Notes under the pieces: model-generated
Databases searched by the model: none
What the model saw: the letters and a program-made list of their open reading frames with translations, nothing else
What the model was told of the DNA's origin: nothing
Position numbers and translations under genes: made by a program
Origin: Eubacteriales bacterium
GTDB taxonomy: Bacteria > Bacillota > Clostridia > Oscillospirales > QAKW01
Direction of reading: 5' to 3'
Assembly (NCBI GenBank): GCA_045541555.1
Contig: JAZQJH010000010.1
Coordinates: 9,346 to 73,345, forward strand
Length of the DNA stretch: 64,000 nucleotides
Shown: positions 40,848-55,323 of the stretch, piece by piece
Layout of the letters: every line of letters begins with the position of its first letter
How positions within the stretch are numbered: the stretch's first letter is position 1

Positions 40848-40854
40848 TGTTGAG

Positions 40855-41000
40855 TCAAAAAAATATGCTTCGCAGACAGCAGGTGCCGGTTTTTGGCTTA
40901 ATATCCCGCCGAGGAGTGCTTTTGAATATCTTAGGATATCTATGCTCCCAAGCGTGTCTGCGCTCTGGGAGCATTATTTTTTGAAAATCTAATGGAGGTA
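40855..41000 (+). promoter_or_regulatory. Ribosomal protein L10 leader (autoregulatory attenuator)
   Basis: A structured 5' UTR of about 150 nt lies in the expected position. Its terminal hairpin atgctccca...tgggagcat (40942-40974) is followed by tatttttt. Assigned from position and architecture only, with no covariance-model scan. Confidence 0.55.
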
Positions 41001-43012: not shown

Positions 43013-44167
43013 TCAGCGAATGCAACGTACGCGCAGGACGCCGTCTACTGCCTTAAGAGCTTCAATAACACGATCGCCGATGTCTTCGCTACAGTCGATC
43101 ATGGTGTAGGCGTAATCACCCTTGGACTTATTCAGCAGGTTATCAATGTTGACGCCGACGGCGGAAACAATTGCCGAAAGAGCGGAAAGCATATTGGGAA
43201 TATTGCGATGGCAGATACAGATCCGCAGGGGAGAGTTCAGTGCAGAAGAAATGTTGGGGTAGTTGACGGAATTCACAATGTTACCGTACTCCAGATATTC
43301 CTTCAATTCTTTGACTGCCATGACCGCACAATTATCTTCACTCTCGGGGGTGGAAGCACCCAGATGAGGAATAGGTATGGCATTCTTCATGGTAAGGGTC
43401 TTTTCGTTGGGGAAGTCGGTTACGTACTTTGCAACCTTGCCGCTTTCCAGAGCAACAGCCATATCCTCGTCGTTGACCAGATCGGCACGGGAGAGATTCA
43501 AGATCCGGACGCCGTCCTTCATGGTTGCGATGGTATCTTTATTGATGCTGTGCTTGGTTTCGGCGGTAAGAGGAGCGTGCAGACAGATATAGTCGCAGTT
43601 AGCGTAAACTTCGTTGATATCTGTCGCTTTTTCAACGTGGTGGTTCAGGTTCCATGCAGACTGCAAGGAGATGTAGGGGTCATAACCGAGAACCTTCATG
43701 CCTAGATGCTGTGCAGCGTTTGCAACCTGTACACCGATGGCACCCAGACCGATGACGCCCAATTTTTTTCCCATGATTTCGGGACCGACAAATTGGGACT
43801 TACCTTTTTCAACCTGCTTGGCAACGTCGTCGCCGGTCAGTCCCTTCGCCCATTCGATGCCACCGACGATGTCGCGGGAGGCAAGGAAGAGTGCGCCGAT
43901 TGCTAACTCCTTTACAGCGTTGGCATTAGCGCCGGGGGTGTTGAATACAACGATACCCTTTTCGGCACAAGCATCCAGAGGAATATTATTGACACCGGCA
44001 CCGGCACGGGCAACAGCCAGCAGGGAAGCGGGCAACTCCATGTCGTGAAGAGAGGCGCTGCGAACCAGAATGCCATCGGGGGCATCGCAGGTATCGCAGA
44101 TTTCATATTTTTGATCAAAGCCATCCAGGCCGATCTTGGCAATTTTATTTAAGGTTTGGATTTTCAT
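43013..44167 (-). CDS. serA: D-3-phosphoglycerate dehydrogenase (with a C-terminal ACT-like domain)
   Basis: NAD-binding GVIGLGAIG and a 2-hydroxyacid dehydrogenase pattern. It is coupled to serC. Confidence 0.88.
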   Translation of the reverse strand: MKIQTLNKIAKIGLDGFDQKYEICDTCDAPDGILVRSASLHDMELPASLLAVARAGAGVNNIPLDACAEKGIVVFNTPGANANAVKELAIGALFLASRDIVGGIEWAKGLTGDDVAKQVEKGKSQFVGPEIMGKKLGVIGLGAIGVQVANAAQHLGMKVLGYDPYISLQSAWNLNHHVEKATDINEVYANCDYICLHAPLTAETKHSINKDTIATMKDGVRILNLSRADLVNDEDMAVALESGKVAKYVTDFPNEKTLTMKNAIPIPHLGASTPESEDNCAVMAVKELKEYLEYGNIVNSVNYPNISSALNSPLRICICHRNIPNMLSALSAIVSAVGVNIDNLLNKSKGDYAYTMIDCSEDIGDRVIEALKAVDGVLRVRCIR

Positions 44168-45246
44168 TATTTGTTTTCCTCTTCAAATTTCTTCATAAAG
44201 TTGACCAGCGCCTCAACGCCCTCGTAAGGCATAGCGTTATAGATACTGGCGCGCATACCGCCGACAGAGCGGTGACCCTTGATGTTGACAAAACCGTTTG
44301 CTGTACACTCTGCGACAAATTTCTTATCCAGCTCTTCGCTGCCGGTCACGAAGGGAACGTTCATCAAAGAACGGGACTCGCCCATAACGGTGGGATGGAA
44401 CATCTCGGACTGATCCAGGAAGTCGTAAAGTAATTTTGCTTTCTTCTTGTTCTTTTCTTCCAGCACCTTGATGCCGCCCATATTCTCGATCCACTCCAGC
44501 ACCAGCTTCAGAATATAGATGGCGTAGGTGGGAGGGGTGTTGAACATAGAGCCATTCTCGGAATGAGTGCTATAAGTAAACATGGTGGGGGTGATGGGCT
44601 GAGGCTCAGCGATCAGATCCTCGCGGATGATGACGACTGTCAGACCGGCAGGACCCATGTTTTTTTGCGCACCGGCATAAATAATACCGAACTTGGAAAC
44701 ATCGATCTCCTCACTGAGGATGGAGGAGGACATATCAGCAACCAAAGGTACGTTGCCGGTTTCGGGCAGCTTATAGAATTTGGTGCCGTAGATGGTATTA
44801 TTGTAGCAAATATGGAAGAAATCAGCCTCGGGATCAAAATCCGCACTGTTCAATTCGGGGATATAGGAGAAGGTCTTATCCTCGCTGGAGGCAACTGCGC
44901 GGCAGGTGCCGTAGCGGCTGCCTTCTTTAAAAGCTTTCTTAGCCCACTGACCGGTAATGACGTAGTCGGCCTTGCCGCTCTTGGTCATCAGGTTCAGGGG
45001 GACCATGGCGAATTGGCTGGACGCACCGCCCTGCAGGAAAAGTACCTTATAGTTATCGGGGATGGAAAGTACTTTACGGAGTAAACTTTCCGCTGACTCG
45101 ATAATAGCTCCATATTCTTTTGAGCGGTGGCTCATCTCCATGACGGACTGACCTGAGGTACCGTAACTCGTCATCTCACTGGCAGCCTTTTCCAGAACTT
45201 CCAGAGGGAGCATGGAGGGACCTGCGGAAAAATTGTAAACTCTCAT
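44167..45246 (-). CDS. serC: Phosphoserine aminotransferase
   Basis: The N-terminus MRVYNFSAGPSMLPLEVLEKAA, and YAGAQKNMGPAG containing the PLP lysine. Confidence 0.95.
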   Translation of the reverse strand: MRVYNFSAGPSMLPLEVLEKAASEMTSYGTSGQSVMEMSHRSKEYGAIIESAESLLRKVLSIPDNYKVLFLQGGASSQFAMVPLNLMTKSGKADYVITGQWAKKAFKEGSRYGTCRAVASSEDKTFSYIPELNSADFDPEADFFHICYNNTIYGTKFYKLPETGNVPLVADMSSSILSEEIDVSKFGIIYAGAQKNMGPAGLTVVIIREDLIAEPQPITPTMFTYSTHSENGSMFNTPPTYAIYILKLVLEWIENMGGIKVLEEKNKKKAKLLYDFLDQSEMFHPTVMGESRSLMNVPFVTGSEELDKKFVAECTANGFVNIKGHRSVGGMRASIYNAMPYEGVEALVNFMKKFEEENK

Positions 45247-45284
45247 TAAAATACACCTTTCTTTCTAAAATATAATTTAGGTTC

Positions 45285-45313
45285 ATTATATTATATTTAT
45301 AATTAAAAGTCAA
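45285..45313 (-). promoter_or_regulatory. sigma-A-type promoter of serC-serA
   Basis: On the - strand: TTGACT (45313-45308), a 17-nt spacer, and TATAAT (45290-45285). Confidence 0.5.
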
Positions 45314-45336: not shown

Positions 45337-45365
45337 TTGAATAACCGTAGGATCCATGCTATAAT
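45337..45365 (+). promoter_or_regulatory. sigma-A-type promoter of the hydrogenase-sensor cassette
   Basis: TTGAAT at 45337-45342, a 17-nt spacer, and TGcTATAAT with TATAAT at 45360-45365. Confidence 0.55.
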
Positions 45366-45397
45366 TATTATAATGTTAACCTTAAAATTAAAGGAGA

Positions 45398-45760
45398 ATG
45401 AACATGAAACTTTCAAAGGTGCGCGAATTACTGGATGCAGAAGTACTCTGCTGTGAGGAAAATCTGGACGGCGAGGTAGAAAGCGCTTGCGGTTCTGATA
45501 TGATGAGTGATGTCTTGGCGTTTGTCAAGGATCATGCGGTTTTACTGACCGGTCTTGTCAATCCTCAGACGGTTCGGACGGCGCAGATGATGGATATGAA
45601 ATGTATTATCTTTGTGCGCGGCAAGCGACCGGAAGAGTCTGTGATCTCTCTGGCTGAGGATAACGGGATCATGATCATGGCTACCGACTATCGCTTATAC
45701 ACCGCTTGTGGACTTCTTTATTCCAACGGACTGTATAGTGAAGGAGTGGATAAGGTATAA
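45398..45760 (+). CDS. DRTGG domain protein
   Basis: 120 aa, with GSDMMSDVLAFVKDHAVLLTGLVNPQTVRTAQMMDMKCIIFVRGKRP (DRTGG-type fold signature). Confidence 0.7.
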   Translation: MNMKLSKVRELLDAEVLCCEENLDGEVESACGSDMMSDVLAFVKDHAVLLTGLVNPQTVRTAQMMDMKCIIFVRGKRPEESVISLAEDNGIMIMATDYRLYTACGLLYSNGLYSEGVDKV

Positions 45761-46179
45761 TGGAACCGATCGTATTTAAATATAAAGTAGACGGCGAGGA
45801 TTTCAGCAATGCTGGCGAGGCGTCTGCAGCTCTGAAAAAATCTTTGAAGCAGATGGGCTTTTCTCCCGACGTGATCCGCCGCGTCTCCATCGCGATGTAT
45901 GAGGGTGAGATCAATATGGTCATCCATGCAGAGGGCGGCGAGGCGACTGCCGAGATCACCGGCGACGCGATCCGTATTATTCTTGCAGATAAAGGGCCCG
46001 GCATCAAGGATGTGGATCTGGCCATGCGGGAGGGATACTCTACCGCACCGGACGAGGTGCGGAATCTGGGTTTTGGCGCCGGTATGGGATTGCCCAATAT
46101 CAAGAGATATTCTGATGATTTGAAGATTGACACCGTATTGGGTGTCGGGACGACCTTAACGATTACAATCAATATATGA
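45760..46179 (+). CDS. Stand-alone GHKL ATPase, anti-sigma-factor-type Ser/Thr kinase-like
   Basis: 139 aa with an N-box-like YEGEINMVIHA, G1 DKGPGI and G2 GFGAGMGLPN. It has no DHp/His domain. Confidence 0.7.
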   Translation: MEPIVFKYKVDGEDFSNAGEASAALKKSLKQMGFSPDVIRRVSIAMYEGEINMVIHAEGGEATAEITGDAIRIILADKGPGIKDVDLAMREGYSTAPDEVRNLGFGAGMGLPNIKRYSDDLKIDTVLGVGTTLTITINI

Positions 46180-46188
46180 GGTGATAGA

Positions 46189-47445
46189 ATGGATTATTTT
46201 CATTCCGTTACATTAGACCCTGACCGTTGCAGAGGCTGCACTGCTTGCGTCAAGCGTTGCCCTACGGAGGCGATCCGGGTCAAAAACGGCAAAGCGACCA
46301 TTATTAAAGAACGTTGCATTGATTGTGGCGAATGTATTCGCGTATGCCCTCATCATGCGAAAAAAGCGGTCTATGATAAGCTTTCGATGCTGGAACAGTT
46401 CGACTATAACGTGGCAATTCCGGCGCCGTCGTTATATGGGCAATTTAATAATCTTGGTAATGTGGACTACGTATTGAACGGGCTTCTTGATATCGGTTTT
46501 GACGATATCTTTGAAGTGGCCAGCGCGGCGGAATTGGTCTCGGAATGTACCCGGATCAAATTGAGTGAAGGCGGTCAGCCGCTTCCGGTGATTTCGACGG
46601 CTTGCCCTGCGGTGGTACGCCTGATCCGTGTGCGTTTCCCCAAGCTGATTCCGCATTTGCTCTGTGTCAAAGCCCCGGTGGATATAGCGGCGGATATTGC
46701 GCGGCGAAAAGCGGTGGAAAAAACCGGTCTTTCTCCGGATCGGATCGGCGTTTTCTTTATCTCGCCCTGCCCGGCAAAGGTGACGGCAATGCGTCAGCCC
46801 TTGGGAACAGATCGTTCTGACGTAGACGGCGTTTTGGCTATTTCCGATGTGTATAAACCACTTTTGGCGGCAATGAATAAGATCAAGCAACCGCAAGCCC
46901 TCTCGGAATGCGGTTTGACCGGTATTTCCTGGAGTTATACCGGCGGCGAGGCGACCGCCTTGCTACGTAATCGCTATTTGGCGGCGGATGGGATGGAGAA
47001 CGTCATCAAGATTTTGGAAGAGATCGAGGATGAGAAGCTTTCCGACGTAGATTTCGTGGAGCTGGGAGCATGCGTTTCCGGCTGCGTCGGCGGATGCCTG
47101 ACCATTGAAAACCCCTATATCGCCAAGACCCGCGTTCGGCAGCTGCGCAAATATATGCCGGTAGCCGGCAACCATTTGAAGGATTATGATCTGCAACTGG
47201 ACGATTATCTTTGGCATAATCCCATTACTTACGATCCCGTTCTCCAATTAGATCAAGACCTTAAAAAAGCAATGCTGAAAATGCAGGAGATCCAAAGGAT
47301 AGAGGAAGAACTGCCCGGTATTGATTGCTCCGCCTGCGGTTCACCGTCCTGCCATGCTTTTGCGGTGGACGTGGTGCAGGGTACGGCTAAAATGTCGGAC
47401 TGTCTGATCATCTTAAAAAATCGATTAAAGGATATTATGGAATGA
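46189..47445 (+). CDS. Sensory-type [FeFe]-hydrogenase homologue (HydS-like, group D architecture)
   Basis: Two N-terminal ferredoxin CxxCxxCxxxCP motifs. The H-domain motifs are STACPA (L1), SPCPAK (L2) and ELGACVSGCVGG (L3), and the C-terminus carries CSACGSPSCx16C. Confidence 0.75.
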   Translation: MDYFHSVTLDPDRCRGCTACVKRCPTEAIRVKNGKATIIKERCIDCGECIRVCPHHAKKAVYDKLSMLEQFDYNVAIPAPSLYGQFNNLGNVDYVLNGLLDIGFDDIFEVASAAELVSECTRIKLSEGGQPLPVISTACPAVVRLIRVRFPKLIPHLLCVKAPVDIAADIARRKAVEKTGLSPDRIGVFFISPCPAKVTAMRQPLGTDRSDVDGVLAISDVYKPLLAAMNKIKQPQALSECGLTGISWSYTGGEATALLRNRYLAADGMENVIKILEEIEDEKLSDVDFVELGACVSGCVGGCLTIENPYIAKTRVRQLRKYMPVAGNHLKDYDLQLDDYLWHNPITYDPVLQLDQDLKKAMLKMQEIQRIEEELPGIDCSACGSPSCHAFAVDVVQGTAKMSDCLIILKNRLKDIME

Positions 47446-47780
47446 TGAAAGTGCATGAGCTTGCCAAGGCCTGCGGCTTTGGCTATTATTCCGGGAAAGA
47501 CGTTGAGGATCGTGAAGTGGGCGGCGCCTATTGCTGCGACCTGCTTTCCTGGGTCATTGGACGTGCCGGTGAAAATGACGCACTGGTTACGGTAATGTCT
47601 AATCCCAATGTAATGGCGGTGGCGGTGATGGCGGATCTGCCCTGCGTCATTTTAACCGAAGGGGTTCGTCCGGACGATAACGCACTGGATAAAGCGGTTG
47701 CGAACGGTATTATCGTCTTATCTTCGGAGGAAACCACCTATAAAACAGCTCTTAGAATTCATGAGGCATTGAGTAAATAA
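47442..47780 (+). CDS. DRTGG domain protein (second copy)
   Basis: 112 aa, with CCDLLSWVIGRAGENDALVTVMSNPNVMAVAVMADLPCVILTEGVRP. Its start overlaps the upstream stop by 4 bp. Confidence 0.7.
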   Translation: MMKVHELAKACGFGYYSGKDVEDREVGGAYCCDLLSWVIGRAGENDALVTVMSNPNVMAVAVMADLPCVILTEGVRPDDNALDKAVANGIIVLSSEETTYKTALRIHEALSK

Positions 47781-47790
47781 AGGAGACGGC

Positions 47791-48528
47791 ATGATGGAAT
47801 TGCGTTATGATCTGCATATTCACTCGGCACTCTCTCCCTGCGGGGACGAGGATATGACGCCGAATAATATTGTGAATATGGCCAAGATCTGCGGTTTAGA
47901 CGTGATTGCGGTATCAGATCATAACACTGCCGGAAACGTGGCGGCTGTCATGGAAGTGGGGAAGGAGATCGGTGTGACGGTCGTCCCTGCCATGGAGCTG
48001 GAAACGGCAGAAGAAATCCATGTGCTTTGCTTGTTTCCAACGCTTGACGCGGTGCTGGCTTTTGAAAAAGAGCAGGTGGTGCCTGCTTTGCCGCCGATTC
48101 AAAATGACGCCCGGATCTTTGGCGAGCAGTTATTGATGGATGCTGCGGATCAGGTCGTCGGAAAAGAAGATCGCTATCTTATCAATGCGACCGCGATCTC
48201 GTTGGACGGGCTTCCGGATCTGGTGGCGTCCTACGGCGGAATTGCTATCCCGGCGCATATTGATAAGCAGACCAAAAGCTTGGTGGGTAACTTCGGTATG
48301 GTCGGGGACTATATGGGCTTTCACTGCTTTGAACTCTCGCGGAATTTGCCGGAGGATTTCATTATTGCAACCCCCGGTCTTGGTAAGCGTCCTTATCGGT
48401 ATATTCACGATTCAGATGCCCATTATCTGCAGGATATTGGCGAACATTCCGGCGATAATCTTCTGGAATTACCGGAAAATTCTGCGGGAGCACTCATTCG
48501 ATATTTGAGTATCGAGAAATTAGGTTAA
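47791..48528 (+). CDS. PHP-domain metal-dependent phosphoesterase
   Basis: YDLHIHSALSPCGD and AVSDHN motifs. Confidence 0.8.
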   Translation: MMELRYDLHIHSALSPCGDEDMTPNNIVNMAKICGLDVIAVSDHNTAGNVAAVMEVGKEIGVTVVPAMELETAEEIHVLCLFPTLDAVLAFEKEQVVPALPPIQNDARIFGEQLLMDAADQVVGKEDRYLINATAISLDGLPDLVASYGGIAIPAHIDKQTKSLVGNFGMVGDYMGFHCFELSRNLPEDFIIATPGLGKRPYRYIHDSDAHYLQDIGEHSGDNLLELPENSAGALIRYLSIEKLG

Positions 48529-48644
48529 TTCCGCGAAAAAAATAGAAAAAACTGTGGAAATTAAAAAAATAATATGTTAAAATTAATATGTTTGTAAAGT
48601 TGGATATTACTGCTTTGCAGTTTCATTACTAAGGAGGATAAAAA

Positions 48645-49139
48645 ATGAGCAACAAGTGTCCCGTTCCATTCAAGGGAACAAAAGAGCAAGAGCAGCAGTT
48701 GCGTGAAGTGATTGCGAAACACAAGGATCAAGACGGTCCTCTGATGCCGGTTCTCCAGGAAGCCCAGGAGATCTATGGTTATCTGCCCATCGAGGTGCAG
48801 AAGATCATTTCCGAAGGTCTAGACATTCCTTTGGAGCACATCTACGGCGTAGTTACCTTCTATGCGCAGTTCTCGCTGGCTCCTAAGGGTGAGTATAAGA
48901 TCGGTGTCTGTCTTGGTACGGCCTGCTATGTTAAGGGCTCCGGTGACATCCTGAATAAGATCAAAGAAATCATCGGAATCGATGTGGGTGAGTGTACCCC
49001 CGACGGTAAGTTCTCTCTGGAGGCCACCCGTTGCATCGGTGCTTGCGGTCTGGCTCCTGTCATGACCATCAACGAAGACGTTTATGGTCGCTTGGTCGTA
49101 GGTGATATTCCCGACATTCTGAAGAAGTATATGGCCTAA
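48645..49139 (+). CDS. NuoE/HndA-like [2Fe-2S] subunit of the bifurcating hydrogenase
   Basis: Thioredoxin-like 2Fe-2S cysteines (CLGTAC ... CIGACGLAP). Confidence 0.9.
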   Translation: MSNKCPVPFKGTKEQEQQLREVIAKHKDQDGPLMPVLQEAQEIYGYLPIEVQKIISEGLDIPLEHIYGVVTFYAQFSLAPKGEYKIGVCLGTACYVKGSGDILNKIKEIIGIDVGECTPDGKFSLEATRCIGACGLAPVMTINEDVYGRLVVGDIPDILKKYMA

Positions 49140-49143
49140 TTCC

Positions 49144-49695
49144 ATGAAGGAATTATCGCTCAATATACTGGATATTACTTATAACTCCATCAAAGCAAAA
49201 GCAGAATTGATCGAGATCACCGTTTCGGAGTCGATGGCAAAGAATACGGTTGAGATCGAGATTAAGGATAACGGCTGCGGTATGGACGAAGATTTTTTGC
49301 GGAACGTGACGGATCCCTTCGTCACCACCCGGACCACCCGAAAGGTGGGGCTTGGAATTCCGCTCTTTAAGCAAAGTGCCGAGGATGCAGACGGCAGCTT
49401 CTTGATCCGATCAAAGGTCGGGGAGGGGACTGTGATTTCCGCGTCTTATCGGTTGGATCACCTGGATCGCGCCCCTATCGGGGATATGTCCGGGACGATC
49501 GTCAGCCTGATTCAGGCCAATGATCAGATCCATTTTGTTTATCACCATCATACCGATCGCGGGACGTTCGTCCTGGATACCGATGAGCTGCACGCCCAAT
49601 TAGGGGACGTACCGCTTTCGGAACCTGCCGTGCTGAGCTGGATCGGAGAATATATCAACGAGAATTTGGATGATATTCAAGGAGGAAAAATATAA
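49144..49695 (+). CDS. Stand-alone GHKL (histidine-kinase-like) ATPase encoded inside the hydrogenase operon
   Basis: LNILDITYNS (N-box), DNGCGM (G1) and GLGIPL (G2). It has no phosphoacceptor domain. Confidence 0.75.
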   Translation: MKELSLNILDITYNSIKAKAELIEITVSESMAKNTVEIEIKDNGCGMDEDFLRNVTDPFVTTRTTRKVGLGIPLFKQSAEDADGSFLIRSKVGEGTVISASYRLDHLDRAPIGDMSGTIVSLIQANDQIHFVYHHHTDRGTFVLDTDELHAQLGDVPLSEPAVLSWIGEYINENLDDIQGGKI

Positions 49696-50070
49696 ATGAA
49701 ATCTTTAGCTGAATTGCAGGCAATCAAAGAAAAGATGCAGAATAAGGTCAATCTGCGCGCAAGCGAGGATGGCAACACCATTCGTGTCGTTGTCGGTATG
49801 GCTACCTGCGGTATTGCAGCAGGCGCTCGCCCCGTTTTGAATGCCTTTTTGAAGGAGATCGAGGATCGTCGCCTCGGCAACGTGATCTGCACCCAGACCG
49901 GTTGTATCGGCATCTGCCAGTATGAGCCGGTTGTCGAGATCACCACGCCCGACGGTACTAAGACCACCTACGTTAAGATGAACGAAGATAAAGTGGCTAA
50001 GGTAGTAACTGAGCATATTGTGAACAACAAAGTCGTTCAGGAATTCACCATCGGCGCTTTTGAGAAATAA
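49696..50070 (+). CDS. HndB-like thioredoxin-fold [2Fe-2S] ferredoxin subunit
   Basis: 124 aa with the MATCGIAAGA ... TGCIGICQYEP cysteine pattern. Confidence 0.8.
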   Translation: MKSLAELQAIKEKMQNKVNLRASEDGNTIRVVVGMATCGIAAGARPVLNAFLKEIEDRRLGNVICTQTGCIGICQYEPVVEITTPDGTKTTYVKMNEDKVAKVVTEHIVNNKVVQEFTIGAFEK

Positions 50071-50085
50071 GGGGGATTTTAGACA

Positions 50086-51879
50086 ATGATTAGAAACCAT
50101 ATTTTGATTTGCGGCGGTACAGGCTGTACGTCCTCCGGCTCTCTGAGCATTATGGAGGCCCTGAACGCCGAGCTGGAAAAGAATAATCTCCAGGATGAGG
50201 TCAAAGTCGTTATGACCGGTTGCTTCGGTCTTTGCGCTTTGGGTCCCATCATGATCGTGTATCCCGAGGGCTCTTTCTACAGCCGTATTGATGCCGAAGC
50301 GATCCCCGAGATCGTTTCCGAGCACATCATTAAGGGTCGTATCGTAAAGAAGTATCTCTACAGCGAAGTAGCTGAGATGGAAGAGAAGGGTGTACATGCT
50401 TCTCTGAACGATACCAATTTCTATAAGAAGCAGAAGCGTGTTGCTCTCCGTAACTGCGGTGTTATCAATCCCGAGGTAATTGATGAGTACATCGCTTATG
50501 ACGGTTACCAGGCTTTGGGTAAGGTTCTGACCGAGATGAAGCCTGCTGACGTCATCCAGGTGATCAAGGATTCCGGTCTTCGTGGCCGTGGTGGCGGCGG
50601 TTTCCCCACCGGTCTGAAGTGGGATCTGGCTTCCCGTACTGTTGCAGATGTCAAGTATGTCTGCTGTAATGCCGACGAAGGCGACCCGGGCGCATTCATG
50701 GATCGTTCCATCCTGGAAGGTGACCCCCACGCCGTCATCGAGGCTATGGCAATCGCCGCTTATGCAGTAGGCGCTTGCAAGGGCTTTGTTTATATCCGTG
50801 CAGAGTACCCCATCGCCGTAAACCGTCTGCAGATCGCCATCAATCAGGCGCGTGAATACGGTTTGCTGGGCGAAGGCATCTTCGGCACTGACTTCAATTT
50901 TGATATGGAGATCCGTCTGGGCGCAGGTGCATTCGTCTGCGGTGAGGAGACTGCTCTTATGACCTCTATCGAGGGTAACCGCGGTGAGCCTCGTCCCCGT
51001 CCTCCTTTCCCCTCTGAAAAGGGTATCTTCGGTATCCCCACCATGAACTGTAACGTTGAGACCTATGCCAACATTCCTCAGATCATTCTGAATGGCGCCG
51101 AGTGGTTTGGTTCCATGGGTACCGAGAAGTCCAAGGGTACCAAGGTATTTGCTTTGGGTGGTAAGATCACCAATACCGGTCTGGTAGAGATCCCCATGGG
51201 TACTACTTTGCGTGAGGTAATCGAGGATATCGGCGGCGGTATTCCCGATGGTAAGAAGTTTAAGGCGGCTCAGACCGGCGGTCCTTCCGGTGGTTGTATC
51301 CCGGCTTCCTTGATCGACACGCCCATCGACTATGATAACCTGATCGCCATCGGCTCCATGATGGGTTCCGGCGGTCTGATCGTCATGGATGAAGACAACT
51401 GTATGGTTGATATTGCGAAGTTCTTCCTGGAGTTCACTGTGGATGAGTCTTGCGGTAAGTGTACTCCCTGCCGTATCGGTACCAAGAGAATGCTGGAGTA
51501 TCTGGATAAGATCACTTCCGGTAAGGCTACCATGCAGGATCTGGACGATCTGGAGCAGCTTTGCTACTACATTAAGGCAAACTCCCTCTGCGGTTTGGGT
51601 CAGACTGCACCTAACCCGGTTCTTTCCACTCTGCGTTACTTCAGAGATGAATATGAAGCTCATATCCTTGAGAAGCGCTGCCCCGCCGGCGTATGTAAGG
51701 ATCTGATGCGCTATGAGATCACCGAGGATTGTAAGGGTTGTACCCTTTGCGCCCGGAACTGCCCTGTTAACGCCATCACCGGCACTGTTAAAAATATGCA
51801 CACCATCGATCAGGATAAGTGCATTAAGTGCGGTGTCTGCGTAAGCAAGTGTAAGTTTAAGGCTATTATCCGGAAGTAA
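50086..51879 (+). CDS. NuoF/HndC-like NAD(P)H-binding flavoprotein subunit (FMN, Fe-S)
   Basis: An N-terminal 2Fe-2S domain, GRGGGGFPTGLKW (FMN/NADH site), SCGKCTPCR, and two C-terminal ferredoxin motifs. Confidence 0.93.
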   Translation: MIRNHILICGGTGCTSSGSLSIMEALNAELEKNNLQDEVKVVMTGCFGLCALGPIMIVYPEGSFYSRIDAEAIPEIVSEHIIKGRIVKKYLYSEVAEMEEKGVHASLNDTNFYKKQKRVALRNCGVINPEVIDEYIAYDGYQALGKVLTEMKPADVIQVIKDSGLRGRGGGGFPTGLKWDLASRTVADVKYVCCNADEGDPGAFMDRSILEGDPHAVIEAMAIAAYAVGACKGFVYIRAEYPIAVNRLQIAINQAREYGLLGEGIFGTDFNFDMEIRLGAGAFVCGEETALMTSIEGNRGEPRPRPPFPSEKGIFGIPTMNCNVETYANIPQIILNGAEWFGSMGTEKSKGTKVFALGGKITNTGLVEIPMGTTLREVIEDIGGGIPDGKKFKAAQTGGPSGGCIPASLIDTPIDYDNLIAIGSMMGSGGLIVMDEDNCMVDIAKFFLEFTVDESCGKCTPCRIGTKRMLEYLDKITSGKATMQDLDDLEQLCYYIKANSLCGLGQTAPNPVLSTLRYFRDEYEAHILEKRCPAGVCKDLMRYEITEDCKGCTLCARNCPVNAITGTVKNMHTIDQDKCIKCGVCVSKCKFKAIIRK

Positions 51880-51893
51880 AGGAGAGGAGAAGA

Positions 51894-53651
51894 ATGCAAA
51901 TGATTAACTTAAAGATCAATGGCACTCCGGTCAGCGTTCCTGCCGGTACGACTGTTCTGGAGGCTGCCAGACAAATGAATATTGATGTTCCCACTCTGTG
52001 CTTCCTGAAAGAGATCAACGCCATCGGCGCTTGCCGTATCTGCGTTGTGGAGAATAGAGTGAACGGCGTCGGCCGTTTGGTTGCCGCTTGTGTATTCCCC
52101 GTGGCCGAGGGCATGGATATTTATACCCATAGCCCCATGGTTCTGAAGGCAAGAAAGCAGACCTTAGAGTTGATTCTTTCCAACCATGATAAGAGATGTC
52201 TCTCTTGTGTTCGTTCCGGCGATTGCGAACTGCAGCGTCTTTGCAACGAGTACAAGGTAGAGAAGGAAAATGCATACGAAGGCGAAGTCGGTTGCTATGA
52301 TATCGACAATTCTGCCGCTCATATGTATCGCGATAATAATAAGTGTATCCTCTGCCGTCGTTGCGTGGCTGTCTGCGATAAGTATCAGTCTGTTGCCGTG
52401 ATCGGTGCCAACGAAAGAGGTTTCGCTACTCATATCGGTTCTGCTTTTGACGATGGTTTGGGCATGACCTCCTGCGTCAGCTGCGGTCAGTGTATCGTTG
52501 CTTGCCCCACCGGCGCGCTGGGAGAGAAGGACGACACCGATAAGGTTTGGGAAGCACTTGCTGATCCCACCAAGCACGTGGTGGTTCAGGTTGCGCCCTC
52601 TATCCGTGTGACCTTAGGTGAAGCTTTCGATATGCCTGTCGGCACCAACGTCGAGGGTAAGATGGTTACCGCTCTGAAGAAGCTGGGCTTTGATAAGGTA
52701 TTCGATACCAACCTCACTGCCGACCTGACCATCATGGAAGAAGCCAATGAGCTGATCGAGCGCGTCCAGAACGGCGGCGTTCTCCCCATGATCACCTCTT
52801 GCTCTCCCGGCTGGGTTAAGTTCTGCGAGCACTATTTCCCCGATATGATCCCCAATCTCTCTTCCTGTAAGTCTCCTCAGCAGATGTTTGGTGCTATTAT
52901 TAAGACCTACTATGCCGAGAAGAATAATATCGATCCTAAGGATATTGTCAGCGTATCTGTCATGCCCTGTACCGCAAAGAAATTTGAGGTCGGCCGTGAG
53001 GATCAGAGCGCTGCCGGCGTTCCCGACGTTGATATTTCTATCACCACCCGTGAGCTGGCCAGAATGATCAAGAGAGCCGGTCTGTTCTTCACCAAGCTGG
53101 AGGATAGCGAGTTCGATCATCCTCTGGGTGTTGGCTCCGGTGCCGGTCTGATCTTCGGTGCTACCGGCGGTGTTATGGAAGCCGCTCTGCGTACCGCGGT
53201 TGAGAAACTGACCGGTAAAGAGCTGGGCAAACTGGAGTTCACCGACGTTCGCGGTACTGCCGGCATCAAGGAAGCCGCTTATAAGGTTGGCGATCTGGAA
53301 GTGAAGGTTGCCGTTTGCTCCGGTTTGAAGAATGCGAAGGAACTGCTGAAGAAGGTTCAGGCCGGCGAAGCCGACTATACCTTTATCGAAGTGATGGCAT
53401 GCCCCGGCGGCTGTGTCAACGGCGGCGGTCAGCCCTTCCAGCCAGCTTCCGTCAGAAACTATGAGGATCTGCGTGCACTGCGTGCAAAGGCTCTTTATGA
53501 TACCGATGCTGCTATGACTCTCAGAAAGTCTCATGAGAACCCTGTTATTAAGGAACTCTATGAGAATTATTTGGAGAAGCCCGGCAGCCATAAGGCTCAT
53601 GAACTGCTGCACACCTCCTACGTGGCCAGAAATAAGTTTGGCGAACAGTAA
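51894..53651 (+). CDS. hydA: [FeFe]-hydrogenase catalytic subunit (HydA/HndD, M3-type, group A3-like)
   Basis: An N-terminal 2Fe-2S domain and 3 accessory Fe-S motifs. H-domain motifs: L1 TSCSPGW (variant), L2 MPCTAKKFE and L3 EVMACPGGCVNGGGQP. Confidence 0.92.
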   Translation: MQMINLKINGTPVSVPAGTTVLEAARQMNIDVPTLCFLKEINAIGACRICVVENRVNGVGRLVAACVFPVAEGMDIYTHSPMVLKARKQTLELILSNHDKRCLSCVRSGDCELQRLCNEYKVEKENAYEGEVGCYDIDNSAAHMYRDNNKCILCRRCVAVCDKYQSVAVIGANERGFATHIGSAFDDGLGMTSCVSCGQCIVACPTGALGEKDDTDKVWEALADPTKHVVVQVAPSIRVTLGEAFDMPVGTNVEGKMVTALKKLGFDKVFDTNLTADLTIMEEANELIERVQNGGVLPMITSCSPGWVKFCEHYFPDMIPNLSSCKSPQQMFGAIIKTYYAEKNNIDPKDIVSVSVMPCTAKKFEVGREDQSAAGVPDVDISITTRELARMIKRAGLFFTKLEDSEFDHPLGVGSGAGLIFGATGGVMEAALRTAVEKLTGKELGKLEFTDVRGTAGIKEAAYKVGDLEVKVAVCSGLKNAKELLKKVQAGEADYTFIEVMACPGGCVNGGGQPFQPASVRNYEDLRALRAKALYDTDAAMTLRKSHENPVIKELYENYLEKPGSHKAHELLHTSYVARNKFGEQ

Positions 53652-53657
53652 TGTTAT

Positions 53658-53687
53658 AAAAAGCCCCCTCGTTGAGGGGGCTTTTTT
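53658..53687 (+). terminator. Intrinsic terminator after hydA
   Basis: Stem aaaagccccctc, loop gttg, stem agggggctttt, followed by a T tract. Confidence 0.9.
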
Positions 53688-53784: not shown

Positions 53785-55323
53785 ATGGGTAAAGGGCAAC
53801 GGGTTCGTGCTGCCAGAGCAGCCGAAAAAGAAGAAAAGAAAGTTCTGCTGGCTAAGAAGGCTAAAAAAGCGAAGGCGACCAAAATCGCAACCTCGATCAT
53901 CGCCGCTGTTTTGGCGGTCTGTATCTTAGGCGGTGTGATCTATCATACGGTTTATAGTACGGCGTATAATAAGGGTACGGTCCAGCGCGACACGATCGTT
54001 TTGCAGTCTGAAAACTATAAAGTTGATGCTGCAATGATGTCTTATTTCTTCTATACGCAGTATAATAATTTTGCGAATACTTATTCCTCTATGCTCTCTT
54101 CCATTGGCTTGGATACCGCTAAGTCTTTGAAGCAGCAAAAATCTGTATTCGGCGATGATCAGACTTGGTATGAGTATTTTGCTGCTCAGGCCGGTAGCCA
54201 GGCTAAAGAATTGGTCTATCTTGCTGAAATGGCAATTAAAGACGGCATGAGCCTGAATGAGGAAGACAAGAAGAGTGCCCAGGAAACCATCGACGCATAT
54301 TATGAAGCGGCAAAAGAAAATAAAATGGACGAAAAAAAGTTCTTGAGCGCAGTCTTCGGTACCGGCGTGAATGAAAACGATGTTCGGAAATGCTTGGAGC
54401 TTTCTCTTTTGGCGGATAAATATCGCGAAAAGTACGTTGATTCCTTGGACTATTCTGACGCCGATCTTGAAGCGTTCTATAAAGAGAACATGGATAGTTA
54501 TCGCTACGTCGATTATTATAGCTATGCAGTTGAAGCGGCTGATAATGAAGACGAGTCTACCTTCGCAGCAGCCGAGAAGAAAGCAAAAGAACTGGCGGCA
54601 GCCAAGAGTCCGGAAGAATTCTCCACTTGGGTCGAAAAGGATTTCCGTGCCGAAAATCCGATCAGTGATGATTATAAAGAGGATGAACTGAAAGAGGATC
54701 TGGAGTCTACTTTGAAGGGTCTTTCAAATACGCAGATTACCTTCATCAAGGACGATGAGGCATCTAAGTGGCTCTTTAATACCGGAAAAGTTGGCGAGAC
54801 CTACATCGCAGACGATAAATCCGGCACCTACACTGTTTATTATCTTACTGCTACTCCTTATCGTGATGAAAGCGCTACCCGCACCATCCGCGATATTATC
54901 CTGACGACCGAAAATTATAAAAAGGACGAGCTAAAGACCACCGCAGACAAGATCGTCGAGGAAATGAAGAAGGCCGGACTGACCGAGGAAACCTTCAAAA
55001 AGTATGCGGCTGAGTATAGTGAGAATACCGCATCCTCTGCAAACGGCGGTCTTTGCGAGAACTATAAAAAGTCTTCCTATGAAGGTACTATCGGCGATTG
55101 GGCATTTGACGCTAAGCGTCAGGCCGGCGATTTCGAGGCATTTGCTATCGAAGACGGTTATGCGATCTGCTACTATGTGGGCGAAGGCATTGCCGCTTGG
55201 AAGTCCGATTGTATTTCCGATAAGCAAGATGCTGATTATCAAAAATCTTATGAAGAATGGACAAAGAACATCACTTTGACCGAAAATGAAAAGGGCTATA
55301 ATAAGATTCCTGATAACATTTAA
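53785..55323 (+). CDS. Membrane-anchored SurA/PrsA-like chaperone with a degenerate parvulin-like C-terminal domain (tentative)
   Basis: A basic N-terminus plus one TM helix. The C-terminus RTIRDIILT...SANGGLCENYKKSSYEGTIGDWAF resembles the PpiC pattern. Weak assignment. Confidence 0.4.
   Translation: MGKGQRVRAARAAEKEEKKVLLAKKAKKAKATKIATSIIAAVLAVCILGGVIYHTVYSTAYNKGTVQRDTIVLQSENYKVDAAMMSYFFYTQYNNFANTYSSMLSSIGLDTAKSLKQQKSVFGDDQTWYEYFAAQAGSQAKELVYLAEMAIKDGMSLNEEDKKSAQETIDAYYEAAKENKMDEKKFLSAVFGTGVNENDVRKCLELSLLADKYREKYVDSLDYSDADLEAFYKENMDSYRYVDYYSYAVEAADNEDESTFAAAEKKAKELAAAKSPEEFSTWVEKDFRAENPISDDYKEDELKEDLESTLKGLSNTQITFIKDDEASKWLFNTGKVGETYIADDKSGTYTVYYLTATPYRDESATRTIRDIILTTENYKKDELKTTADKIVEEMKKAGLTEETFKKYAAEYSENTASSANGGLCENYKKSSYEGTIGDWAFDAKRQAGDFEAFAIEDGYAICYYVGEGIAAWKSDCISDKQDADYQKSYEEWTKNITLTENEKGYNKIPDNI

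What the first reader, a model, noticed from the sequence alone, without database searches (positions are those of the whole stretch)
45337..48528. Five-gene signalling cassette (DRTGG, GHKL kinase-like, sensory hydrogenase, DRTGG, PHP) with no recognisable output domain, upstream of a bifurcating hydrogenase operon
Five tightly coupled genes follow one sigma-A-type promoter. In order they encode a DRTGG protein, an anti-sigma-type GHKL Ser/Thr-kinase-like ATPase, a sensory-type [FeFe]-hydrogenase homologue, a second DRTGG protein and a PHP phosphoesterase. The cassette ends 116 bp before the hndA-like, hndB-like, hndC-like and hydA structural genes.

The logic resembles a partner-switching module. 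It has a kinase, a candidate phosphatase and two small candidate substrate or antagonist proteins, all gated by an H2-sensing H-cluster protein. The cassette contains no STAS domain, sigma factor, DNA-binding domain or response regulator, so the phospho-acceptor and the regulatory output are not evident.

To my knowledge the signalling mechanism of such cassettes has not been worked out. The hfs genes of Thermoanaerobacterium are a related but differently built example.
Basis: partly seen in the sequence, partly recalled or inferred. Interest (0 to 1): 0.7.

Follow-up and report, generated by a model that had tools for sequence, protein, structure and literature searches.

The report
Hydrogen-sensor gene cassette beside a hydrogenase operon
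This is a real, very widely conserved gene set built around a slow "sensor" hydrogenase next to the genes of an NADH/ferredoxin-linked hydrogenase. The gene arrangement was already in the literature, but how the hydrogen signal is passed on is still unknown, and comparison with other genomes gives new, testable leads.

Summary
Five tightly packed + strand genes encode DRTGG, a SpoIIAB-like GHKL ATPase, a group D (M2e, TamHydS-type) [FeFe]-hydrogenase, a second DRTGG and a PHP phosphoesterase. They lie 116 bp upstream of a HydABC-type operon.

The arrangement is not new. M2e "sensory" hydrogenases next to kinases and bifurcating hydrogenases were described in 2010-2012. Papers up to 2026 still call the signalling unknown.

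In other lineages this gene directly follows PHP, even where no hydrogenase genes are present, so the system probably has six parts.

Further findings from about 170 related loci:
- DRTGG1 and GHKL1 occur as natural fusions.
- In 29 of 80 metagenomic loci HydS is absent and a CBS pair is fused to GHKL1 instead, which points to a swappable input.
- Rex is translationally coupled to the module in three different architectures.
- DRTGG has the HprK-N/AF1212 fold, not STAS. The PHP protein resembles nucleotide or nucleic-acid phosphoesterases, not protein phosphatases.

It therefore resembles a partner switch in logic only. Best reading: an H2-responsive ATP-dependent switch that controls the NuoEF-type hydrogenase. 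The acceptor and the output are unproven.

The parts
45337..45365 (+). sigma-70-type promoter-like site (TTGAAT-17-TATAAT, TG extension) in front of the cassette
   Evidence: sequence read. This is a consensus match only and is not verified.
45404..45760 (+). DRTGG1, a small single-domain DRTGG protein (118 aa; alternative start 45398). It carries an invariant C-G-S-D-M-M-S-D-V-L-A-F loop.
   Evidence: - Pfam PF07085, 34.3 bits.
- Orthologues are 118 aa and 69-100% identical, including in Coriobacteriia.
- AF2 model pLDDT 87.4; the invariant loop is the least confident region.
- Foldseek: 2IOJ TM 0.81; HprK/P N-domain E 5e-4.
- D32 and S35 are invariant in 16 diverse representatives.
45760..46179 (+). 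GHKL1, a SpoIIAB/RsbW-like GHKL ATPase or Ser/Thr-kinase-like protein (139 aa)
   Evidence: - Pfam HATPase_c_2, 40.9 bits.
- NCBIfam spIIAB E 3.4e-13, below the cut-off.
- Best PDB matches are SpoIIAB and RsbW.
- N, G1 and G2 boxes are invariant.
- Fused to DRTGG1 in P0420 and P0461.
- Fused to a CBS pair in 29 metagenomic loci.
46189..47445 (+). HydS, a group D (M2e) putative sensory [FeFe]-hydrogenase (418 aa)
   Evidence: - Pfam: two Fer4, Fe_hyd_lg_C and FeS.
- H-cluster cysteines C139, C194, C295 and C299 are present.
- TACP replaces TSCCP, so the proton-relay Cys is absent.
- SPC replaces MPC.
- The C-terminal Cx2Cx4Cx16C motif (C380, C383, C388, C405) is invariant.
- These are the features that PMC8163306 gives for M2e.
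47442..47780 (+). DRTGG2, a paralogue of DRTGG1 (112 aa) with the same D-L-L-S-x-V motif
   Evidence: Pfam PF07085, 37.4 bits. It is 31% identical to DRTGG1, E 1e-13. The motif is conserved across lineages.
47794..48528 (+). PHP-family metal-dependent phosphoesterase (244 aa; alternative start 47791)
   Evidence: - Pfam PF02811, 27.8 bits.
- Invariant H8, H10, C16, D42, H43, E68, H76, H155, D208 and H210.
- AF2 model pLDDT 93.3.
- Foldseek: EndoQ TM 0.70, BAD_1165, RNase AM, Cv1693.
48529..48644 (+). 116-nt AT-rich spacer with a weak promoter-like site (48555-48583) and no terminator-like site
   Evidence: No Rex-box-like site with 3 or fewer mismatches was found.
48645..49139 (+). HydC (NuoE-like 2Fe-2S subunit)
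   Evidence: Pfam 2Fe-2S_thioredx, 169 bits.
49144..49695 (+). GHKL2, a stand-alone histidine-kinase-type ATP-binding domain with a roughly 80-aa C-terminal extension (183 aa). It is a probable sixth component of the sensor system.
   Evidence: - Pfam HATPase_c, 55.8 bits.
- Present in every adjacent hyd operon.
- Directly follows PHP in L021, L081-83, L087, L088/89, L090 and L092.
- Stays with the DRTGG and PHP genes where no hydrogenase genes are present (L088, L092).
49696..50070 (+). HydD/HndB-like thioredoxin-like 2Fe-2S protein
   Evidence: Weak Pfam 2Fe-2S_thioredx match and NCBIfam fdxn_Clost E 1.9e-11.
50086..51879 (+). HydB (NuoF-like FMN/NADH subunit)
   Evidence: Pfam Complex1_51K 151 bits and NADH_4Fe-4S 124 bits.
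51894..53651 (+). HydA, the catalytic [FeFe]-hydrogenase
   Evidence: NCBIfam NF040763 (NADH-dependent group A6), 900 bits against a cut-off of 765.
53658..53686 (+). intrinsic-terminator-like hairpin that ends the ten-gene unit
   Evidence: 13-bp stem, 7 GC pairs, followed by a T run.

Best explanation
The cassette is the hydrogen-sensing control unit of the adjacent HydABC-type NADH/ferredoxin-linked [FeFe]-hydrogenase.

What the sequence and comparison show:
- HydS is a group D (M2e) hydrogenase of the TamHydS type. It has an intact H-cluster site but lacks the proton-relay cysteine.
- It is flanked by a SpoIIAB-like GHKL ATPase, two paralogous DRTGG proteins and a PHP phosphoesterase.
- A second GHKL ATPase lies in the hyd operon.
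- Across phyla these six genes travel together and sit in or next to NuoE/NuoF-type operons.

What is inferred:
1. HydS reports H2 by a conformational change to GHKL1. GHKL1 is held by DRTGG1 acting as an N-terminal adaptor domain, much as the HprK N-domain sits on its kinase.
2. In a parallel family the HydS gene is absent and a CBS pair is fused to GHKL1. GHKL1 is therefore the transducer, and HydS or CBS is the exchangeable input.
3. GHKL1 uses ATP to phosphorylate or lock a partner. The best candidate site is the invariant Asp-x-x-Ser loop shared by both DRTGG proteins.
4. The DRTGG2-PHP-GHKL2 arm reverses or reads that state.
5. The output is not a dedicated DNA-binding protein. It is either direct control of the NuoEF (HydBC) module of the enzyme, or modulation of the redox repressor Rex, whose gene is translationally coupled to the module in three different architectures.
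For: - Domain and motif assignments.
- Published biochemistry of the TamHydS homologue: low turnover, high H2 affinity, CO tolerance and an H2-induced structural change (PMC8163306; PMC13104023).
- Conserved five-gene order in 80 species loci. The hyd operon lies downstream in 21, divergent upstream in 24, and interleaved in 1.
- The cassette sits inside the hyd operon in Atopobiaceae.
- DRTGG1::GHKL1 fusions: P0420 on 10 contigs read, from ENA, JGI and Logan assemblies, and P0461.
- Input swap: 24 HydS-type against 29 CBS-GHKL1-type loci in one metagenome scan. Pfam confirmed the CBS pair on five of them.
- PHP-GHKL2 adjacency in L021, L081-83, L087, L088/89, L090 and L092. The six genes occur without hydrogenase structural genes in L088/89. 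L092/93 carry a four-gene core (DRTGG1, DRTGG2, PHP, GHKL2) plus Rex.
- Rex is coupled to the module in L084-86, L092-93 and L099.
- D32 and S35 are invariant in diverse DRTGG1 proteins, and DRTGG2 shares the motif. In the AF2 model this is a low-confidence loop, as expected of a partner-binding or modified segment.
Against: - No phosphorylation, interaction or regulatory effect has been shown for any of these proteins. No genetic data on group D cassettes were found.
- DRTGG is not a STAS fold.
- The nearest structural relatives of the PHP protein act on nucleotides or nucleic acids, not on phosphoproteins.
- In TamHydS the C-terminal cluster is not reduced by H2, so even the first signalling step is unclear.
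- 18 of 64 loci have no hyd operon within the flanks.
- Neither Rex nor a Rex box is found in this window.
- The DRTGG motif is kept in the L092 variant, which lacks GHKL1. It cannot therefore be only a GHKL1 substrate site.
Confidence: 0.55

Rival explanations
1. A classical partner-switching module. GHKL1 phosphorylates the free DRTGG proteins as antagonists, PHP dephosphorylates them, and unphosphorylated DRTGG releases a target held by GHKL1.
For: - GHKL1 is closest to SpoIIAB and RsbW.
- Two small paralogous proteins carry an invariant Ser in a strand-loop-helix position.
- A phosphoesterase is encoded alongside.
Against: - No STAS fold, no PP2C, and no sigma factor or other sequestered target in about 170 loci.
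- DRTGG1 is covalently fused to GHKL1 in some lineages. That fits an adaptor domain better than a freely exchanging antagonist.
- The motif persists where GHKL1 is absent.
Confidence: 0.2
2. Not signalling at all. The GHKL ATPases, the DRTGG proteins and PHP would be assembly, repair or quality-control factors for the NuoEF-type iron-sulfur/flavin module. HydS would be a low-activity auxiliary hydrogenase or a scaffold.
For: - GHKL ATPases include chaperones.
- The module sits inside structural operons, including non-hydrogenase NuoEF/HdrA-like operons.
- GHKL2 is encoded between structural subunits in this window.
Against: - GHKL1 belongs to the anti-sigma kinase branch, not the Hsp90/MutL branch.
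- A CBS pair is a typical ligand-sensing input.
- Coupling to Rex and the hydrogenase-free variants argue for regulation.
- TamHydS has sensor-like kinetics.
Confidence: 0.12
3. A nucleotide-based rather than phosphoprotein-based switch. PHP would hydrolyse a nucleotide or an oligonucleotide-like ligand, or a nucleotidyl-protein bond. DRTGG and CBS would be the ligand-binding parts, as in CBS-pyrophosphatases.
For: - The structural neighbours of the PHP protein are EndoQ, RNase AM, pAp phosphatases and Pol III PHP.
- DRTGG and CBS form the nucleotide-regulated insert of CBS-PPases (3L2B and 3L31 hits).
- CBS is fused to GHKL1 in many loci.
Against: - No cyclase, nucleotidyltransferase or other ligand-producing enzyme is encoded in the module.
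- GHKL domains transfer or hydrolyse the gamma-phosphate of ATP.
- DRTGG has no demonstrated ligand (own knowledge).
Confidence: 0.1

Closest known systems
Group D (M2e) putative sensory [FeFe]-hydrogenase clusters: TamHydS of Thermoanaerobacter mathranii; Cthe_0335, Athe_1292, Csac_1857, TTE0887, Teth39_1463, Cphy_3798
   Same: - The domain layout matches: two 4Fe-4S clusters, the H-domain, Cx2Cx4Cx16C and no PAS.
- The active-site substitutions match: the proton-relay Cys is lost and Met353 becomes Ser.
- The position matches: upstream of a trimeric or tetrameric bifurcating-type hydrogenase with kinase-like genes between.
- The gene-number spacing in those genomes (sensor at n, the hydrogenase genes listed at n+5 to n+7) fits the ten-gene layout here.
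   Different: This instance is from an uncultured gut Clostridia lineage; its best relative is an 83%-identical roe-deer colon MAG. The published descriptions mention only a 'histidine/serine kinase' (and, in T. mathranii, an 'AraC' neighbour). In the literature I could search they do not discuss the DRTGG pair, the PHP protein or the second GHKL.
Group C (M2f) sensory systems: T. maritima HydS, R. albus HydS, T. saccharolyticum HfsB with HfsC
   Same: These also have a slow H-cluster protein with a C-terminal 4Fe-4S site. They are encoded near catalytic hydrogenases, and Ser/Thr kinase or phosphatase genes accompany R. albus HydS and T. saccharolyticum HfsB. A role for Rex has been proposed in R. 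albus.
   Different: Group C proteins carry a PAS domain and pair with Hanks-type or PP2C-type enzymes. Here there is no PAS, and the partners are GHKL, DRTGG and PHP proteins.
SpoIIAB-SpoIIAA-SpoIIE and RsbW-RsbV-RsbU partner switching
   Same: GHKL1 is the same kind and size of protein as the anti-sigma Ser kinases. The overall logic of a kinase plus a phosphoesterase plus small partners is similar.
   Different: There is no STAS, no PP2C and no sigma factor. One small partner is fused to the kinase in some lineages.
HPr kinase/phosphorylase, and the CBS-DRTGG-CBS regulatory insert of CBS-pyrophosphatases
   Same: The DRTGG1 model superposes on the HprK/P N-domain (E 5e-4) and on the CBS-PPase DRTGG domain. 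A DRTGG-like domain N-terminal to a kinase, and DRTGG combined with CBS, both recur in this family.
   Different: The kinase domain here is GHKL, not P-loop. No pyrophosphatase is involved.
HoxBC-HoxJ-HoxA regulatory [NiFe]-hydrogenase of Cupriavidus necator
   Same: In both, a hydrogenase is used as an H2 sensor that controls hydrogenase genes through an ATP-dependent kinase (as summarised in PMC5707799).
   Different: The metal site is unrelated. HoxJ is a PAS histidine kinase with a response-regulator output; here there is neither.

Membership tests
Group D (M2e) [FeFe]-hydrogenase (TamHydS type) | [quoted passage not shown] | tested here: met
   Fer4 twice and Fe_hyd_lg_C at 103.8 bits. 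C139, C194, C295 and C299 are invariant.
Group D (M2e) [FeFe]-hydrogenase (TamHydS type) | Proton-relay Cys (CpI C299) absent; Met353 replaced by Ser or Thr | tested here: met
   S136-x-A138-C139-P140 (TACP) and S192-P193-C194 are invariant in 13 sequences. The criteria come from PMC8163306.
Group D (M2e) [FeFe]-hydrogenase (TamHydS type) | C-terminal Cx2Cx4Cx16C cluster motif and no PAS domain | tested here: met
   C380, C383, C388 and C405 are present, PF04060 scores 47.2 bits, and there is no PAS hit.
Group D (M2e) [FeFe]-hydrogenase (TamHydS type) | Phylogenetic placement with TamHydS, separate from groups A, B and C | not tested
No solved structure of a close relative exists (best PDB hit E 6e-21, to group A enzymes).
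Group D (M2e) [FeFe]-hydrogenase (TamHydS type) | H2 binding with slow turnover (sensor-like kinetics) | not testable with these tools
   This is known only for TamHydS.
Partner-switching module (RsbW/SpoIIAB type) | HATPase_c_2 Ser kinase / anti-sigma factor | tested here: inconclusive
   The domain and the ATP motifs are present. The spIIAB and RsbW equivalog scores (49.7 and 27.4 bits) are far below their cut-offs of 135 and 145.
Partner-switching module (RsbW/SpoIIAB type) | STAS-domain antagonist carrying the phospho-serine | tested here: not met
   There is no STAS hit. The DRTGG1 model matches AF1212, the CBS-PPase DRTGG domain and the HprK N-domain, not STAS.
Partner-switching module (RsbW/SpoIIAB type) | PP2C (SpoIIE/RsbU) phosphatase and a sequestered sigma factor | tested here: not met
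   A PHP protein takes the place of PP2C. No sigma factor was found in the cassette or recurrently in the flanks.
Two-component system | DHp domain with a phospho-His, plus a receiver-domain partner | tested here: not met
   GHKL2 is a bare catalytic domain. The only well-conserved His in its tail is replaced by Asn in L088. No receiver domain is present.
HydABC-type NADH/ferredoxin [FeFe]-hydrogenase (the neighbouring operon) | HydA with N-terminal 2Fe-2S/4Fe-4S domains, a NuoF-like HydB and a NuoE-like HydC | tested here: met
   NF040763 scores 900 bits against a cut-off of 765. Complex1_51K, NADH_4Fe-4S and 2Fe-2S_thioredx are all hit. Bifurcation itself cannot be tested here.
PHP protein phosphatases (CpsB/YwqE type) | Fold and active site closest to the PHP tyrosine phosphatases | tested here: not met
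   The metal ligands are intact. However, the 35 Foldseek matches with E <= 1e-3 are EndoQ, BAD_1165, RNase AM, PsfC, TM0559, Cv1693, BVU_3505 and Pol III/PolC. CpsB and YwqE are not among them.

The most novel reading that the evidence does not exclude
DRTGG1, GHKL1, DRTGG2, PHP and GHKL2 may together form a so far undescribed, phylum-spanning signal-transduction system. It would be neither a two-component system nor a partner switch. It would be dedicated to NuoE/NuoF-type flavin-based electron-bifurcating enzymes, including hydrogenases and HdrA/GltD-linked complexes. It would take exchangeable inputs: a group D HydS for H2, or a CBS pair for adenylates. It would act post-translationally on the NuoEF module or through Rex.
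Probability: 0.35. Interest if true: 0.8.

Novelty: new member of a known kind. Interest (0 to 1): 0.55.

Why it matters
Electron-bifurcating hydrogenases set the H2 and redox balance of fermenters in guts, rumens and digesters. Nobody knows how cells sense H2 through [FeFe]-type sensors.

The biophysics of TamHydS is advanced, but its signalling partners have not been identified. The comparative picture found here names concrete partners and experiments:
- six co-travelling genes;
- kinase-adaptor fusions;
- exchange of HydS for CBS as the input;
- coupling to Rex.

If confirmed, it would also add a new class of regulator for bifurcating enzymes in general.

Tried and rejected
- **Rex box in the window.** There is no site with 3 or fewer mismatches upstream of DRTGG1 or NuoE, and no rex gene in the 64 kb. 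Sites with at most 1 mismatch exist in some relatives (L029, L036, L055, L074), but chance hits are common in AT-rich spacers.
- **DRTGG as an L7Ae-like RNA binder.** The phmmer hit to YbxF had E 0.14 and Foldseek did not reproduce it. Dropped.
- **DRTGG as a STAS analogue by fold.** Rejected.
- **H-box-like motif (H-x-D-R-x-P) in the GHKL2 tail as a phospho-His site.** The His is Asn in L088 and the Arg is variable. Rejected.
- **Other long DRTGG1 hits.** P0374 (SPOR), P0403 (ArgJ) and P0486 (peptidase M3) look like gene-call or assembly chimeras rather than informative fusions.
- **A conserved sixth neighbour in the 18 loci without a hyd operon.** None was found.
- **RNA elements.** There are no Rfam or tRNA features near the cassette.
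- **Papers not held.** Calusinska 2010, Poudel 2016 and Zheng 2014 could not be read. Statements about them rest on citing papers or on my own knowledge.
- **Searches that failed.** The source-genome look-up with P0241 found nothing.

Full report
**What is in the window**

Ten + strand genes run from a promoter-like site at 45337-45365 to a strong terminator-like hairpin at 53658-53686. The first five are the reported cassette:
- DRTGG1, 45404-45760. One search lists the ORF from 45398, but orthologues are 118 aa.
- GHKL1, 45760-46179.
- HydS-like, 46189-47445.
- DRTGG2, 47442-47780.
- PHP, 47794-48528.

They are separated by -1, 9, -4 and 13 nt. After a 116-nt AT-rich spacer with no terminator-like site come NuoE/HydC, a second GHKL ATPase (49144-49695), an HndB-like 2Fe-2S protein, NuoF/HydB and HydA. 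No STAS, sigma, HTH or receiver domain is hit. HydA matches NCBIfam 'NADH-dependent [FeFe] hydrogenase, group A6' at 900 bits against a cut-off of 765.

**What the hydrogenase homologue is**

It has these features:
- two N-terminal 4Fe-4S motifs;
- the four H-cluster cysteines;
- TACP in place of TSCCP, so the proton-relay Cys is lost;
- SPC in place of MPC, so Met353 becomes Ser;
- a C-terminal Cx2Cx4Cx16C motif (PF04060);
- no PAS domain.

Land et al. 2020 use exactly these features to define the M2e subclass, or group D, whose only characterised member is TamHydS (PMC8163306). TamHydS has low turnover, high H2 affinity and CO tolerance, and is proposed to be a sensor. A 2026 paper shows that H2 does not reduce its C-terminal cluster, and states that the signalling route is still open (PMC13104023). 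No close relative has a solved structure.

**Is the arrangement known?**

Yes. Carere et al. [quoted passage not shown] They list Athe_1292, Csac_1857, Cthe_0335, Cphy_3798, TTE0887 and Teth39_1463. In each case the hydrogenase genes they list as the trimer begin five genes from the sensor gene, at n+5 to n+7, which fits the layout seen here (PMC3561251). They cite Calusinska 2010 for the general observation.

Full-text searches for DRTGG with hydrogenase, for PHP with bifurcating hydrogenases, and for the locus tags found no functional study. They also found no discussion of the DRTGG or PHP genes. The cassette itself is another instance of a described kind.

**Conservation**

A scan of one genome per species returned 80 loci with HydS 52-83% identical, mostly Oscillospirales with some Lachnospirales. 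The closest is a roe-deer colon MAG.
- The order DRTGG1-GHKL1-HydS-DRTGG2-PHP is kept in essentially all of them.
- Of 64 loci with enough flank, the hyd operon lies downstream on the same strand in 21, divergently upstream in 24, and interleaved in 1. It is absent within the flanks in 18.
- Those 18 share no other recurrent neighbour.
- DRTGG1 is remarkably conserved, at 69-100% identity among the best 120 clusters, some of which are from Coriobacteriia.

**The individual proteins**

*GHKL1*
- Its nearest relatives are SpoIIAB and RsbW, although its scores are far below the equivalog cut-offs.
- Its N, G1 and G2 boxes and an STA lid motif are invariant.

*DRTGG1 and DRTGG2*
- They are paralogues, 31% identical with E 1e-13.
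- They share a D-L-[LM]-S-x-V motif.
- In 16 representatives that are only 29-46% identical to the reference sequence, Asp32 and Ser35 are among just seven invariant positions.
- The AF2 model of DRTGG1 has pLDDT 87.4. This invariant stretch lies in its least confident loop.
- The model matches AF1212 (TM 0.81), the DRTGG domain of CBS-pyrophosphatase and the N-domain of HPr kinase/phosphorylase (E 5e-4). It does not match STAS.

*PHP*
- It keeps a full set of metal ligands, with Cys16 in the place where I recall a His in YcdX-type PHP proteins (own knowledge).
- Its model has pLDDT 93.3.
- Its structural neighbours are EndoQ (TM 0.70), BAD_1165, RNase AM, Cv1693 and the polymerase III PHP domain. 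The CpsB/YwqE protein phosphatases are not among them.

**Leads from more distant relatives**

A full HMMER search of 1.84 billion representative proteins with DRTGG1, followed by context look-ups, gave four results.

1. *Natural DRTGG1::GHKL1 fusions exist.* They are P0420, with 10 contigs read that carry it, from ENA, JGI and Logan assemblies among others, and P0461. The two proteins therefore work as one unit. This resembles the N-domain plus kinase layout of HprK/P.

2. *The second GHKL ATPase belongs with the sensor genes.*
   - It directly follows PHP in L021, in Atopobiaceae (where the whole cassette sits between hydC and GHKL2), and in L087 and L090.
   - It also follows PHP in L088/89, a contig that carries PorV and a C25 peptidase and is probably from Bacteroidota. 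There DRTGG2-PHP-GHKL2 and DRTGG1-GHKL1-HydS lie together with no hydrogenase structural genes nearby.
   - In L092/93 the set is reduced to Rex-DRTGG1-DRTGG2-PHP-GHKL2, with no HydS, GHKL1 or hydrogenase.

3. *The input is exchangeable.* In a metagenome scan of 80 loci, 24 are HydS-type. In 29 the HydS gene is missing and GHKL1 carries an N-terminal CBS pair instead; Pfam confirmed this on five of them. These CBS-type modules sit in NuoE/HndB/NuoF operons. Some of these operons have a true HydA (L099). Others have a NuoF::GltD fusion and an HdrA-like protein of about 1100 aa (L135, L111, L104).

4. *A rex gene is translationally coupled to the module.* Its stop codon overlaps the next gene's start in L084-86 and L092-93. 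It lies upstream in L099. That makes three different architectures. Rex is not adjacent in the 80 genome loci or in this window. No convincing Rex box is present here.

**Most likely mechanism**

*Shown:* the composition, motifs, folds and co-inheritance described above.

*Inferred:*
- HydS is the H2 input to GHKL1, because a CBS sensor fused to GHKL1 takes its place in the sister family.
- DRTGG1 is the adaptor domain of GHKL1.
- DRTGG2, PHP and GHKL2 form the opposing or read-out arm.
- The invariant Asp/Ser loop of the DRTGG pair is the best candidate for the modified or contact site.
- The target is the NuoEF (HydBC) part of the enzyme or Rex-dependent transcription, because these are the only constant genomic partners.

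I put about 0.55 on 'an H2-responsive, ATP-dependent regulatory switch for the HydABC-type enzyme'. I put much less on any particular acceptor.

*Rivals:*
- A true partner switch with free DRTGG antagonists: 0.2.
- An assembly or quality-control role: 0.12.
- A nucleotide-ligand switch, suggested by the relatives of the PHP protein and by the CBS/DRTGG link: 0.1.

**Comparison and novelty**

- It works like a partner switch or the HoxBC-HoxJ sensor only in outline.
- It fails the membership tests for partner switching (no STAS, PP2C or sigma factor) and for two-component systems (no DHp or receiver).
- It meets every sequence-level test for group D HydS clusters.
- The window instance is therefore a new member of a known kind.
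- What appears under-described is the wider six-gene module, its CBS-input sister family, its presence in non-hydrogenase NuoEF operons, and its coupling to Rex. These would matter if confirmed, and they make the open question of [FeFe]-type H2 sensing directly testable.

Noticed in passing
window 49144-49695: A second, stand-alone histidine-kinase-type ATP-binding protein lies between hydC and the HndB-like gene. It has a distinctive DPF-TTRTTR-x-VGLG lid and a conserved D-x-x-P-x-G-[DN] motif in a roughly 80-aa tail with no Pfam match.
   Followed up: yes
L096-L175 (for example L135:9296-10294, L165:2090-3046): A sister family of the module has no HydS gene, and GHKL1 carries an N-terminal CBS pair. 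It sits in NuoE/NuoF operons, some of which encode a NuoF::GltD fusion and an HdrA-like protein of about 1100 aa instead of HydA.
   Followed up: partly
L092:7360-10031, L093, L084:7372-8813, L099:15-782: A rex gene lies immediately upstream of the module in three different architectures, and is often translationally coupled to it. One is a minimal Rex-DRTGG1-DRTGG2-PHP-GHKL2 set with no hydrogenase genes.
   Followed up: partly
L081:237-4573: In the Atopobiaceae contig a second NuoE-NuoF-Fer2-GltD-like cluster lies directly upstream of the hyd operon. It has none of the DRTGG, PHP or GHKL genes.
   Followed up: no
window 43013-45313 (- strand): Divergent from the cassette are serC-like (44167-45246) and D-3-phosphoglycerate-dehydrogenase-like (43013-44167) ORFs; this reading is from the translations only. 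A strong promoter-like site lies at 45313-45285 (11 of 12 matches). The 150-nt spacer therefore holds two back-to-back promoter-like sites.
   Followed up: no
window 40852-40987: This is the ribosomal protein L10 leader (Rfam RF00557, 55.8 bits). It is the only Rfam match in the window, and no tRNA genes were found.
   Followed up: no
window 53785-55323: A 512-aa ORF lies just after the hyd terminator. It has a Lys/Ala-rich N-terminus and a predicted membrane anchor. It was not analysed.
   Followed up: no
window 45398 vs 45404; 47791 vs 47794: The first in-frame ATG is probably not the true start for DRTGG1 or for PHP. Orthologues are 118 aa and 244 aa.
   Followed up: yes
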